NCBI GenBank assembly: GCA_964016885.1
Contig: CAXHJY010000386.1
Location: forward strand, 1 to 64,000
Direction: 5' to 3'
Length of the DNA stretch: 64,000 bases
Origin: Eledone cirrhosa
Taxonomy: Eukaryota
The translations under genes were made by a program, and so were the position numbers. How positions within the stretch are numbered: position 1 is the first letter of the stretch; every line of letters starts with the position of its first letter. The notes under the pieces are model-generated. The model was given only the letters and a program-made list of their open reading frames with translations. It was not told the DNA's origin and searched no databases. Positions 9,979 through 34,394 of the stretch are shown piece after piece.

Positions 9979-10000
9979 ATGTCTATTGCGAAGGGTGATG
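9979..10000 (+). CDS. Coding exon 1 of a putative Pro/Tyr-rich tail-anchored membrane protein (MSIAKGD + phase-1 G)
   Basis: ATG TCT ATT GCG AAG GGT GAT G followed by a consensus donor GTAAGT at 10001, in non-repetitive sequence. Phase 1 matches the acceptor at 28505. The link across an 18.5-kb intron is inference. Confidence 0.55.
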
Positions 10001-10699
10001 GTAAGTACCAACTTCTTTCCTTTCTCTTATGGAATCGTCCTTCTATCGTTCGTTTGATTCAACTAATTAGCTAATTGTCTTAAATAATTATTGGGTGGGG
10101 TTTCCTCGTGGCTATCTCGCTCGTGTGTGTATGTATCTGTGTGTGTGTGTGTGTGTGTGTGTGTGAATATTACTTGCTTTTGTTTCTCGCTCTCTTTGCT
10201 TTGGCTCTATACAATATACTAAAGATTGTACCAAGACGTAACTCTAATTCGTTACAAACATTTAGCCCCCATGCCAGCAATTATAGAACGGTTCCAACCA
10301 TAGCCATCCTACTTTATATTTATTCAAACTACATTATCCAATGTATCGGGATCCACATGTTTTGAAGGCGGTTGGGCGGTGTGATTTAAGGGAGATTTGG
10401 CTGCTATTTTTAATAGATTGAACAACCACTTTGGTGAAGCTTTCATCGTTGGGAAGTGGTTGTATGTATCGGTTTTTAAAAAGCTAAAAATACAGAACCA
10501 AAGGTTTTTTAGTTACCGTTGCTCTGTACAAGGTTAAATAAATATCTTAATGGGTGGCAGGCTACACCATTGCCCCACCACCAGCAAGGAATACTTGTGT
10601 AATTGATGTGCGTATTCATATAAATCTACCTCCGACATAACATGTTTATTGTAATTATCCGTTATCTCTATCTATGTATCCACCGTCACCTACTGTCTC

Positions 10700-11200
10700 T
10701 TTGAGGAAACTTTACTTCAATACTGAGCATAGCATTATCTAATAACACTTAGGGAGAATACCTTAATCACTGATGGAACGGTGCACTGGTTTTATCTAAC
10801 TGTCTAATACAACGAAACAAACTGAAAAGATCTGCCATAACTTTTCCCTCTCTGTAGATATAGCATTCAAACTACACACAATTTAAAGAAACGTTACACA
10901 GTATTGGATATAAACGTTATCTAATGTTCCTTAGAAAGAAAATCCTGGTGGCTAGCAGCGGTATCTTTAATGATGGACGGGTACACAAGTTCTAACTTGG
11001 TTCTCACTTTTGGCTCTGGAACATTTTTCGGCCACACCCCGATAACTGCTTCTGCTGGTAAGCTACTTAGTGAGAGGCTGGACGCTTGAAGAGTAGATAA
11101 GCACCACCAAGTATTTGTAAGGTTCATTGAATGGCCATAATGAACACAGTCAAACGTTTAGAGTGGTATATCCCAACGACTGCTGCACCAGTTACGGAAA
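10700..11200 (-). mobile_element. Possible decayed Gypsy-type integrase remnant
   Basis: Broken frames give WDIP, KYLVV..YS and LPAE...RTKLELVYP, reminiscent of Gypsy integrase motifs; heavily degraded. Confidence 0.35.
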
Positions 11201-11882
11201 CTTAATTGATCTACCTATCTGTCTGTCTATCTAAAGATATCTATATATATCTATCTAAATAAAGAAATACATCTATTTATCTATCTGTCTGCCTGGCCAT
11301 CTGCCAGTCAATCTATCTGTCTGTCTATCTGCCAGTCAGTTTATCTGTCTGTCCATCTTGCATAACAAAACAAACTAAATAGATCTATAACTATAACTGT
11401 GGGTGTGTGTGTTGAACAGTGACAATAAAATAGAAGTCAAATATAGGTTCTCAATCATTTCAATGATTTACGATCGTTTCAGAGGGTTGATTGATGATGA
11501 TTGATCCATATATTGGCTAGCTAGTAGGGGTTATGTCACTACCAATTTCTAGTCACGAAATCCTTGATCCATCTTCCCCAGAAACAATGAACTATGATTA
11601 TATTTGCGATATATATAAATATATATATATATATATAAATATATATATATATATTAAAGAGTTAAACAAGATTCAATGAGTACATCAAAGAATGAGTTTT
11701 ACAGTAGATTGGAAGCACTCTACAAAAAATATTTTCCAGTTATTAATATTAATTCAAATATTAACAAAATAGATATTCTTGTGATCAATTAAATTTTATT
11801 ATACATATTTCAGAAGTACTGAATTAAGTTCAACAGTACGTCCTCATCATCTACCATGTCAGGGTATATCATGTATCATTTT

Positions 11883-11947
11883 ATTTTATCTGATGAGGAC
11901 GTACTGTTGAACTTAATTCAGTACCTCTGAAATATGTATAATAAAAT
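11883..11947 (+). ncRNA. Minimal type-I hammerhead ribozyme motif
   Basis: Stem I attttat/ataaaat, core CTGATGA (11890-11896), stem II gga-c-gtactg/cagtac-c-tct, GAAA (11929-11932), t-atgt-a, AUA triplet ending at 11940. Confidence 0.8.
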
Positions 11948-30865: not shown

Positions 30866-33800
30866 CTGTATGTATATATATATATATATATATATATTTA
30901 TATATTTATATATATATATTTATATATTTATATATATATATATATTTATATATATATATATATTTATATATATATATATATTTATATATATATATATATA
31001 TTTATATATATATATATATATTTATATATATATATATATTTATATATATATATACATTTTTATATATATATATATATATATATATTTATATATTTATATA
31101 TACATTTTTATATATATATATATATATATTTATATATATATATATTTATATATATATATATATTTATATATATATATATTTATATATATATATATATTTA
31201 TATATATATATATATTTATATATATATATATTTATATATATATATATTTATATATATATATATATTTATATATATATATATTTATATATATATATATATT
31301 TATATATATATATATATTTATATATATATATATTTATATATATATATTTATATATTTATATATATATATATTTATATATATATATATATTTATATATATA
31401 TATATATTTATATATATATATATTTATATATATATATTTATATATATATTTATATATATATATATTTATATATATATTGTTATACTTTGGGAGGGTCATG
31501 TTACCAATAAGAAACACACGTACCAGTTGCTTTCACTTCAATTTATTATAATAAATTTATAAATTTAGGAATTTATAAATTTCTGGTTGGTTGGTTGGTT
31601 CCACAACCAGATATTTGTTTATATATTGTCAAAGTTCTTTCGTCACACATTCTATGACCTCTTCAGTGACTGGGGATTCTTTTCTTTGTTTTTGTGTCTC
31701 TCCTTTGTTCTGTCCTACGCCACACAGAAACAAAATGGCGTAGGACAGAACAAAGGAGAGACACAAAAACAAAGAAAAGAATGCCTGTCACTGAAGAGGT
31801 CACAGAATGTGTGACGAAAGAACTTTGACAATATATAAACAACTATCTGGTTGTGGAACCAACCAACCAGAAATTTATAAATTTATTATAATAAATTGAA
31901 GGGAAAGCAACTGGTGCGTGTGTTTCTTATTGGCAACATGACCCTCCCAAAGTATAACAATATCGGTTTCAACACACGATTTCAGATAAAGAATCTTGCT
32001 AAACAAATTCAGAAACTTTATATATATATATATTTATATATATATATATTTATATATATATATATATATATTTAATTATTTATATATTTATTTATATATA
32101 TATATATATATATTTATTTATATATATATATATATATATATATATATTTATTTATATATATATATATTTATTTATATATATATATATATATTTATATATA
32201 TATATATATATATATATATATATATATATATATATATATTTATATATATATTTATATATATATTTATATATATATTTATATATATTTATATATATATTTA
32301 TATATATTTATATATATATATTTATATATATTTATATATATATATTTATATATATTTATATATATATATATATTTATATATATTTATATATATATATATT
32401 TATATATATTTATATATATATATATTTATATATATATATATTTATATATATATATATTTATATATATATATATTTATATATATATATTTATATATATATA
32501 TATTTATATATATATATTTATATATATATATTTCATTTCTGAATTTGTTTAGCAAGATTCTTTATCTGAAAACGTGTGTTGAAACCGATATTGTTATACT
32601 TTGGGAGGGTCATGTTGCCAATAAGAAACACACGCACCAGTTGATTTCACTTCAATTTATTATAATAAATTTATAAATTTATTATAATAAATTGAAGTGA
32701 AAGCAACTGGTGCGTGTGTTTCTTATTGGCAACATGACCCTCCCAAAGTATAACAATATATATATATATTTATATATATATATATTTATATATATATTTA
32801 TATATATATTTATATATATATTTATATATATATATTTATATATATATTTATATATATATATTTATATATGTATTTATTTATATATATATTTATATATATA
32901 TATATTTATATATATATATATTTATATATATATATATTTATATATATTTATTTATATATATATATATATATATTTATATATATATATATTTATATATATA
33001 TATATTTATATATATATATATTTATATATACATATATTTATATATATATATATTTATATATATATATTTATATATATATATATATATATTTATATATATA
33101 TATATTTATATATATATATATTTATATATATATATATATATTTATATATATTTATATATATTTATATATATTTATATATATTTATATATATTTATATATA
33201 TATATATTTATATATATATATATTTATATATATATATATTTATATATATATATATTTATATATATATATATATATATATATATATATATATTTATATATA
33301 TATATATATATATATTTATATATATATATATATTTATATATATATATATATATATATTTATATATATATATATATATATATATATATATATATATATATA
33401 TATATTTATATATATATATATATTTATATATATATATATATTTATATATATATATATATTTATATATATATATATATTTATATATATATATATTTATATA
33501 TATATATATATATTTATATATATATATATATTTATATATATATATATATTTATATATATATATATATTTATATATATATATATATTTATATATATATATA
33601 TATTTATATATATATATATATATTTATATATTTATATATATATTTATATATATATATATATATTTATATATATATATATATATTTATATATTTATATATT
33701 TATTTATATATTTATATATTTATATATATATTTATATATTTATATATATATTTATATATTTATATATATATTTATATATTTATATATATATATATATATT

Positions 33801-33901
33801 TATATATATATTTATATATATATATATATTTATATATATATATATATTTATATATATATATATATTTATATATATATATATATATATATATATATTTATA
33901 T
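30866..33901. repeat. Long interrupted (TA)n tracts (30866-31476, 32018-32532, 32757-33901) separated by palindromic repeat units
   Basis: Directly visible. Confidence 0.95.
31786..31830 (+). ncRNA. Minimal hammerhead motif (mirror copy about 31628-31670 minus; related copies 48238-48282 + and about 14432-14475 -)
   Basis: tgtca-CTGAAGA-g-gtcaca-gaatg-tgtgac-GAAA-g-aa-c-tt-tgaca; one extra G before stem II. Confidence 0.7.
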
Positions 33902-34271
33902 GGTAGTTTTTTCCATGCTTCAGAAACTCTGAGCATGAAAAAATGTTTCCGAAAGTCATGGGAGCTGTGCTGTTTTCTGACTTTGTGGGCATGCCCACGT
34001 GTGTTAGACACATGGAAATCAAAAAGGTACTCAGGGTTGTTGTTGGCAAGATGGTTAATAATTTTGTGGGTGTTTACCAAGTCCATTGCCAGACGGAGCT
34101 TCAATGTATCCATGCCCAGGGAAGCAAGGCGTTCAGAGTATGGTAGATGCCTGATGGAGGGTATTCGCTTGGTTGCACGTCTCTTATATATATAAGGGAA
34201 GCTAAATTCTCCCTCCCTGCTTCCTCCACTAAAGAAATAGTGCTTCTAACAGAAATCTATCTCTATTTCAG

Positions 34272-34394
34272 AATCCAACAGGAGGTCCAGCACAAGTAGT
34301 ACCACAAAACAACAGCCGACGAAAAATCATGGCCATTCTTCTTGTTATTTTTCTACCACTCTGCCTTTTTATATTTATATACCTCATTTTTTGA
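34272..34394 (+). CDS. Terminal coding exon 3 (NPTGGPAQVVPQNNSRRKIMAILLVIFLPLCLFIFIYLIF*), C-terminal transmembrane helix
   Basis: Acceptor ctctatttcAG, phase 0 compatible with exon 2. Basic RRK then 22 uncharged, mostly hydrophobic residues, TGA at 34392-34394. Confidence 0.7.
   Translation, partial: NPTGGPAQVVPQNNSRRKIMAILLVIFLPLCLFIFIYLIF

What the first reader, a model, noticed from the sequence alone, without database searches (positions are those of the whole stretch)
9979..34394. Unrecognised 3-exon gene for a 128-aa PPxY-containing tail-anchored protein
Seen: three exons with consensus splice sites and matching phases (1, then 0) give [128 protein letters not shown]. The ORF track shows only the middle exon. 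Known: PPxY motifs bind WW domains of NEDD4-family ligases, and a C-terminal helix without a signal peptide indicates tail anchoring. The N-terminus resembles LITAF/CYSTM-type proteins, but neither Cys-rich domain is present. Inference: a possibly lineage-specific membrane adaptor for ubiquitin ligases.
Basis: partly seen in the sequence, partly recalled or inferred. Interest (0 to 1): 0.75.

Follow-up and report, generated by a model that had tools for sequence, protein, structure and literature searches.

The report
Octopus tail-anchored ubiquitin-ligase adaptor candidate
A real, spliced gene, already annotated without a known function in three Octopus species, encodes a small floppy protein with a predicted membrane anchor at its tail and a conserved PPxY motif that likely recruits NEDD4-type ubiquitin ligases to membranes; no relative was found outside octopuses.

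Summary
The gene is real. The three exons splice into an open 128-aa frame. A transcript-like contig joins exon 1 to exon 2 exactly at 10000/28505; junction 2 is inferred from that contig's end and from orthologues. It is not unrecognised: syntenic orthologues beside XRCC2 are annotated in O. vulgaris, O. sinensis (LOC115222916) and O. bimaculoides (misnamed 'annexin A11-like'). No homologue was found outside Octopus among 1.84 billion representatives. Two blocks are almost invariant, the 19 residues around the single PPxY (18/19) and the basic-plus-hydrophobic tail (24/26), while the middle drifts (36-39/67). It fails the LITAF, CYSTM, Ndfip and annexin tests, and the genome holds its own copies of the first three elsewhere; a weak another-regulin hit is noise. 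Best reading (about 0.5): a tail-anchored PY-motif adaptor for NEDD4-family HECT ligases, built like herpesvirus UL42/U24 but unrelated in sequence, whose invariant helix likely selects a membrane partner. Binding, topology and partner are untested. A sound orphan gene of a known functional kind; moderate-to-low interest.

The parts
9796..9978 (+). 5' UTR part of exon 1 (the contig's 5' end, not a mapped start site); no ATG in 183 nt, in-frame stop upstream of the start codon
9979..10000 (+). coding part of exon 1: residues 1-7 plus one base; GT donor, phase 1
   Evidence: similar N-terminus in P0002
10001..28504 (+). intron 1 (18.5 kb), holding LINE reverse-transcriptase frames, a tandem array and microsatellites
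   Evidence: junction shown; content
28505..28746 (+). exon 2: residues 8-88, Pro/Gly/Tyr-rich, predicted disordered
28507..28551 (+). 15 residues (9-23) identical in all three proteins compared; contains the single PPxY (28522-28533, residues 14-17), extended as PPxYxxV to 28542
28747..34271 (+). intron 2 (5.5 kb), largely AT microsatellite; junction inferred
34272..34394 (+). coding part of exon 3: residues 89-128 and TGA
34317..34391 (+). three basic residues (104-106) and a 22-residue hydrophobic helix (107-128) ending at the last residue; 20 residues invariant; Pro117 and Cys119 inside it
   Evidence: Kyte-Doolittle 3.17; helix 105-131 of P0002, pLDDT 80-92
34395..35377 (+). probable 3' UTR: the contig's remaining 799 nt would end at 35070 inside a tandem array (34885-35323); first AATAAA at 35372
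   Evidence: inferred

Best explanation
The gene is spliced and encodes a 128-aa Pro/Gly/Tyr-rich protein with one conserved PPxY motif and a conserved hydrophobic C-terminus; it is predicted to be tail-anchored with its disordered part in the cytosol, and likely works as an adaptor that binds WW domains of a NEDD4-family HECT ligase and brings it to a membrane partner that would be recognised by the invariant helix. Shown: splicing of exons 1-2, open frame, orthology, the two conserved blocks, a ligase with four WW matches and HECT matches in the same genome. Inferred: post-translational insertion into the ER and transport to Golgi, endosome or plasma membrane (long, very hydrophobic helix, basic residues on the N-terminal side, no residues after it); WW binding; activation or recruitment of the ligase; ubiquitin-dependent sorting of an unknown partner to the lysosome.
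For: Selection falls on exactly two features. Against P0002 and P0001 the PY block is 18/19 identical, the basic-plus-hydrophobic tail 24/26, the middle 36/67 and 39/67 with 20 gap columns (Fisher p 6e-6 and 3e-5, blocks drawn after seeing the alignment); the only invariant runs of 4 or more in the three-way comparison are these two, 20 and 15 residues; neighbouring XRCC2 is 75% identical to O. bimaculoides. The motif has the extended form PPxYxx-hydrophobic in all three proteins, like the PPxYxxL Nedd4 site of ENaC (PMC2582799, passage). Ten of 11 residues around it equal the N-terminal PY stretch of adenovirus penton base (8 of 12 rows, E 0.12-0.6, not significant as homology), and penton PPxY motifs bind Nedd4 WW domains (PMC3459938, passages). 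The same layout (N-terminal PY, C-terminal helix, no signal peptide) suffices for Itch binding in herpesvirus UL56, UL42, ORF0 and U24 (PMC5849660). G000 has four WW matches followed by HECT matches on one strand at C6:18.18-18.20 Mb. P0001 and P0002 hold no lysine, which suits an adaptor better than a substrate.
Against: PPxY occurs in 25-58% and PPxYxx-hydrophobic in 5-13% of composition-keeping shuffles. Only three distinct sequences could be compared, all octopods. One PY motif gives little avidity (general knowledge). The window's protein has two lysines (residues 5 and 106), and Pro-rich sequences are poor in lysine anyway. WW domains of non-ligase proteins bind PPxY too (23 WW matches in G000). 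A near-invariant helix fits a pump or channel subunit as well as an adaptor. Topology is predicted from hydropathy and a shallow-alignment model (mean pLDDT 57, pTM 0.20); LITAF was once called tail-anchored and proved monotopic (PMC5095921, passages).
Confidence: 0.5

Rival explanations
1. It is a single-helix regulatory subunit of a pump, channel or transporter (regulin-like in working); the invariant helix is the business end and the PY motif only sets trafficking or turnover of the complex.
For: 20 invariant residues in the helix exceed what an anchor needs. The only Pfam match of P0001 and P0002 is another-regulin, PF17696, on the tail (E 0.032 and 0.023). Regulins are tail-anchored, and ALN has an unstructured cytosolic part (PMC8396278, passages).
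Against: 14.8 and 15.3 bits against a cut-off of 25. In G000 the ALN model gives 68 matches at 17.9-25.2 bits among 150 of 206 candidates scored, exon 3 not among them; the 3 top stop-free ones read were microsatellite frames. The window's own exon 3 did not hit ALN. No PDB match for exon 3 at E 10. ALN, the largest regulin, has 66 residues; this has 128.
Confidence: 0.25
2. The PY motif binds WW proteins that are not ligases (YAP/Yorkie, KIBRA, MAGI types) and tethers them at a membrane.
For: G000 holds many WW loci with no HECT match nearby; two look like YAP and KIBRA types (labels recalled; sequences).
Against: The extended PPxYxx-hydrophobic context is the one described for Nedd4-family sites; one motif only.
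Confidence: 0.1
3. The Pro/Gly/Tyr-rich middle is an ALG-2/ESCRT docking or condensate-forming region like the annexin A11 head, and the protein acts in Ca2+-dependent membrane traffic.
For: 6 of the 11 alignment columns holding a Tyr... namely Tyr is kept in all three proteins at 7 of 11 such columns, 4 of them in the drifting middle; PxPPY is in all three; the RefSeq name of P0001 reflects this composition.
Against: PPYP is only in the window's protein; no PxYPx4YP or PxPGF in any (motifs from abstract openings of PMC4346919 and PMC3397542). PTAP only in P0001 and GPPxxxY only in the window's protein. No annexin repeat.
Confidence: 0.07
4. On origin (compatible with the readings above): it is a duplicate of a CYSTM1- or LITAF-type gene that lost its cysteines and replaced the anchor.
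For: Same plan as CYSTM: under 150 aa, Pro-rich head, short hydrophobic strand, C-terminal membrane segment (PMC2804304, parts 1-2).
Against: One Cys, no Cys patch, no terminal acid, no CxxC; no profile match; G000 has a CYSTM-type terminal exon at C1696:286315-286407 (19.1 bits, under the cut-off, recognised by eye) and LITAF matches at C10:15.85 Mb.
Confidence: 0.08

Closest known systems
Octopus orthologues XP_029649168.1 (LOC115222916, O. sinensis), CAI9738428.1 (O. vulgaris), XP_052831350.1 ('annexin A11-like', O. bimaculoides)
   Different: The window's protein has a poly-Pro insertion, deletions in the middle and two lysines; the O. bimaculoides record starts at an internal Met and lacks the exon-1 residues; the annexin name is unsupported.
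Herpesvirus tail-anchored Nedd4 adaptors (HSV UL56, VZV ORF0, HCMV UL42, HHV-6/7 U24; PMC5849660, PMC11998485)
   Same: N-terminal PY motif, C-terminal helix, no signal peptide, no folded domain.
   Different: No sequence similarity found; cellular, intron-containing gene; binding untested. Works-like analogy only.
Cellular PY-motif membrane adaptors: Ndfip1/2, LITAF/CDIP1, evectin-2 (PMC5095921, PMC5665887)
   Same: Membrane-bound proteins whose PPxY binds or activates NEDD4, ITCH or WWP ligases.
   Different: No Ndfip or LITAF domain; G000 has its own Ndfip (C10, C17) and LITAF. Evectin-2's PH domain and C-terminal anchor are recalled, not seen in the passages read; no PH domain here.
CYSTM family (PF12734; PMC2804304)
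   Same: Small, Pro-rich disordered head, C-terminal membrane segment.
   Different: Lacks the 3-4 consecutive cysteines and the terminal acidic residue.
Regulins (another-regulin, PF17696; PMC8396278)
   Same: Tail-anchored, unstructured cytosolic part, sub-threshold profile match on the helix.
   Different: Twice the length, PY block, score within genome noise.

Membership tests
Octopus LOC115222916 orthologous group | best hit, single copy, shared neighbour | tested here: met
   (only exons 2 and 3 at E under 0.4 among 45 candidates scored)
Tail-anchored PY-motif NEDD4 adaptors (UL56/UL42/U24 type, functional class) | PPxY in an N-terminal cytosolic part | tested here: met
   one PPxY, invariant in 3 of 3 proteins
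Tail-anchored PY-motif NEDD4 adaptors (UL56/UL42/U24 type, functional class) | single C-terminal hydrophobic helix, no signal peptide | tested here: met
   hydropathy, model with one helix; prediction only
Tail-anchored PY-motif NEDD4 adaptors (UL56/UL42/U24 type, functional class) | PY-dependent binding and regulation of a NEDD4-family ligase | not testable with these tools
   needs pull-down and ubiquitylation assays
Herpesvirus UL56/UL42/U24 (sequence families) | sequence homology | tested here: not met
   no Pfam match, no viral hit among 1.84 billion representatives at E 0.001
LITAF/CDIP1 | zinc-binding cysteine motifs flanking the hydrophobic stretch (PF10601) | tested here: not met
   no CxxC, one Cys; no Pfam match
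LITAF/CDIP1 | conserved P(S/T)AP | tested here: not met
   present in 1 of 3 proteins (P0001 only)
CYSTM | small protein, Pro-rich head, C-terminal membrane segment | tested here: met
   definition in PMC2804304
CYSTM | 5-6 Cys with a patch of 3-4, then an acidic residue | tested here: not met
   exon 3 not among the 4 PF12734 matches of 28 candidates in G000
Ndfip/Bsd2 | PF10176 domain | tested here: not met
   the family's matches lie on C10 and C17
Annexin A11 | annexin repeats | tested here: not met
   no annexin Pfam match in P0001, P0002 or the window's exons
Regulins (ALN) | PF17696 score over the cut-off | tested here: not met
   14.8 and 15.3 bits against 25; noise level in G000 up to 25.2 bits
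Regulins (ALN) | binds and regulates SERCA | not testable with these tools

The most novel reading that the evidence does not exclude
Octopods evolved, without a gene-family precursor, a cellular counterpart of the herpesvirus UL42/U24-type tail-anchored NEDD4 adaptors: a minimal two-part device in which a PY motif grips the ligase and an invariant helix picks one receptor or channel inside the membrane, giving a lineage-specific route for removing that protein from the cell surface.
Probability: 0.2. Interest if true: 0.55.

Novelty: new member of a known kind. Interest (0 to 1): 0.32.

Why it matters
If right, it adds a minimal, octopod-restricted member to the small membrane adaptors that steer NEDD4 ligases, corrects a misleading database name ('annexin A11-like'), and offers a short protein in which substrate choice through a single helix can be tested. 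It does not change a principle: PY-motif adaptors and this layout are known, and the gene model already exists in three genomes.

Tried and rejected
Complex prediction of a C6 WW domain with residues 9-40 gave no verdict (score 0.14, mark 0.34, alignments not used, controls not folded); it says nothing either way. ESM Atlas: no usable hit by features for the whole protein or the tail, structure rows under the bar. PHROGs: 0 families for 2 proteins. P0003, the second hit (E 2e-10), is a 416-aa tandem-repeat frame, dropped. PDB searches with exon 2 (2 rows, E 0.21 and 2.8) and exon 3 (0 rows) gave nothing useful. Runs X1-X7 held 0.04-0.06 of the words; X1 laid nothing on exon 2. X10's share of 0.88 of the exon-3 words fits a spliced transcript, but X9 and X11 (0.90, 0.73) are also under 1, so it is weak. 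No HECT exon was found in C5:1-60000 beside the C5 WW cluster (no frame passed the filter), so that locus is not claimed as a ligase. Processed pseudogene as source of the spliced contig: rejected, one copy found in G000. Artefact: rejected. Earlier findings of the scan: none in 4 look-ups. No fold search was run: a model with one helix and pTM 0.20 would give meaningless matches. One search compared two unrelated frames and is uninformative.
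Full report
Observation. The window is G000:C413:1-64000 of a 3.0-Gb genome, an octopod by inference from its best protein hits. From sequence alone exon 1 was 1 of 13 ATG-to-phase-1-donor candidates upstream of exon 2, and exon 3 was the most hydrophobic of 44 downstream phase-0 acceptors, 4 of which passed a hydropathy of 1.8.

Transcript evidence. Of 11 runs listed, 4 hold half or more of the exon-3 region's words, all from one study. Run X10 (library not on record; RNA by inference) has a 1246-nt contig at depth 50 that covers 9796-10000 without mismatch and continues with the first 30 nt of exon 2. 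A contig of the same length, depth and strand covers 28504-28746 at the adjoining record positions and stops at the donor. Contigs of X8, X9 and X11 run through the exon borders into the introns. Junction 1 is thus shown, in one run of one study. Junction 2 was not seen: 799 nt of the contig remain, which would end at 35070 inside a tandem array, before an AATAAA at 35372. The 183-nt leader has no ATG and an in-frame stop.

Relatives. Exon 2 found one cluster of 2 sequences: XP_052831350.1, 'annexin A11-like', O. bimaculoides, 125 aa (P0001), and XP_029649168.1 / CAI9738428.1, uncharacterized LOC115222916, O. sinensis and O. vulgaris, 132 aa (P0002). Both run from the exon-2 into the exon-3 peptide without a gap, and P0002 begins with residues resembling exon 1. 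The window's neighbour at 51422-52369 (minus) is XRCC2, and O. vulgaris XRCC2 is CAI9738427.1, the adjacent accession: syntenic orthologues. One copy was found in G000. P0002 found only P0001 among 9 candidates of 72-231 aa at E 10; the profile found P0001 and one repeat artefact among 1.84 billion representatives. As a control, XRCC2 returned 69 proteins, with gastropods, bivalves and unnamed entries at 72, 49 and 45%, so other molluscs are in the database; whether squid or cuttlefish proteins are is not shown by name, and a short low-complexity protein may escape detection. Searches for the four accession numbers and for octopus with PPxY and NEDD4 found 0 papers in the held library; subscription journals and supplementary tables were not searched and may list the gene.

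Anatomy. Residues 1-103 are Pro/Gly/Tyr-rich and modelled without secondary structure; one helix closes the protein (P0002 105-131, pLDDT 80-92; whole model pLDDT 57, pTM 0.20). Three basic residues precede 22 hydrophobic residues that end at the stop codon (best 19-residue hydropathy 3.17). There is one PPxY, in the extended form PPxYxxV in all three proteins. Such a motif is cheap in this composition: 25-58% of shuffles hold a PPxY, 5-13% the extended form. What counts is conservation: PY block 18/19, tail 24/26, middle 36/67 and 39/67 with 20 gap columns; the only three-way invariant runs are 20 residues of the helix and 15 around the PPxY, against 75% for XRCC2. P0001 and P0002 have no lysine; the window's protein has two.

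How it likely works. Shown: expression with junction 1, frame, orthology, two constrained blocks, and a locus with four WW matches then HECT matches at C6:18.18-18.20 Mb (an ITCH/WWP label would be recalled). Inferred from established rules for tail anchors (own knowledge): insertion into the ER after translation, N-terminus cytosolic, onward transport to Golgi, endosome or surface. Inferred from motif and analogy: the PY motif binds NEDD4-family WW domains. Ten of 11 residues around it equal the N-terminal PY stretch of adenovirus penton base (not significant as homology, read as convergence); penton PPxY motifs bind Nedd4 WW domains (PMC3459938, passages), and PPxYxxL is the ENaC Nedd4 site (PMC2582799, passages). 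Herpesvirus UL56, ORF0, UL42 and U24 have this layout and bind Itch through PY (PMC5849660, passages and part 1 of 4; PMC11998485, passages). Evectin-2 activates Itch, WWP1 and WWP2 through one PPPY (PMC5665887, passages). The invariant helix suggests a specific partner in the membrane; which one is unknown. Confidence about 0.5.

Rivals. A regulin-like subunit (0.25): the sole Pfam match is another-regulin at 14.8-15.3 bits (cut-off 25), but that model scores 68 places in G000 at 17.9-25.2 bits without listing exon 3, and the three read were microsatellites; the working idea survives on the helix conservation, the membership claim does not (PMC8396278, passages). Non-ligase WW partners (0.1). 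ALG-2/ESCRT docking (0.07): no motif is shared by all three proteins (motifs from the search listing; GPPxxxY as a CEP55 motif is recalled). Descent from CYSTM1 or LITAF (0.08): defining cysteines are absent (PMC2804304 parts 1-2 of 3; PMC5095921 passages), and G000 has a CYSTM-type exon, LITAF and Ndfip elsewhere.

Verdict. The gene is already modelled in three Octopus genomes; its likely function is not in the papers searched. It is a new member, without detectable family, of a known functional kind. Interest 0.32.

Noticed in passing
window 51422-52369, minus: XRCC2 in one long frame, convergent with the gene studied; Rad51 Pfam match, 75% to O. bimaculoides XRCC2.
   Followed up: yes
window 61568-61735, 62384-62527, 63613-63792, plus; continues in L044: Exons of a RING-finger gene (C3HC4 match E 3.6e-5, under cut-off) followed by coiled-coil-like frames; looks like COP1/RFWD2 (label recalled).
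   Followed up: partly
window 49667-49870 and 49894-50124, plus: Two charged, coiled-coil-like frames facing XRCC2; no significant Pfam match; possibly the 3' exons of another gene.
   Followed up: partly
window 25221-27239 minus and 16724-17962 plus: Two LINE reverse-transcriptase frames inside intron 1; the longer (672 aa) matches RVT_1 and has a PHD-finger match within it.
   Followed up: partly
window 43174-45048, minus: Broken retroelement frames that look Penelope-like (label recalled); no Pfam match for the two frames tested.
   Followed up: partly
window 18692-20414 and 46574-47833: Tandem arrays with long open frames in several phases.
   Followed up: no
window 28790-29065: A very high-copy repeat starts about 45 bases after the exon-2 donor (summed contig depth up to 2 million in DNA-like runs).
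   Followed up: no
L023, G000:C1696:286315-286407, minus: CYSTM-type terminal exon with a Cys patch and final acidic residues that scores under the Pfam cut-off.
   Followed up: partly
G000:C10:4894514-4894816 and C17:40639706-40640002: Two Ndfip-family (PF10176) loci, each with two matches about 20 bases apart in long open frames, so possibly intronless.
   Followed up: no
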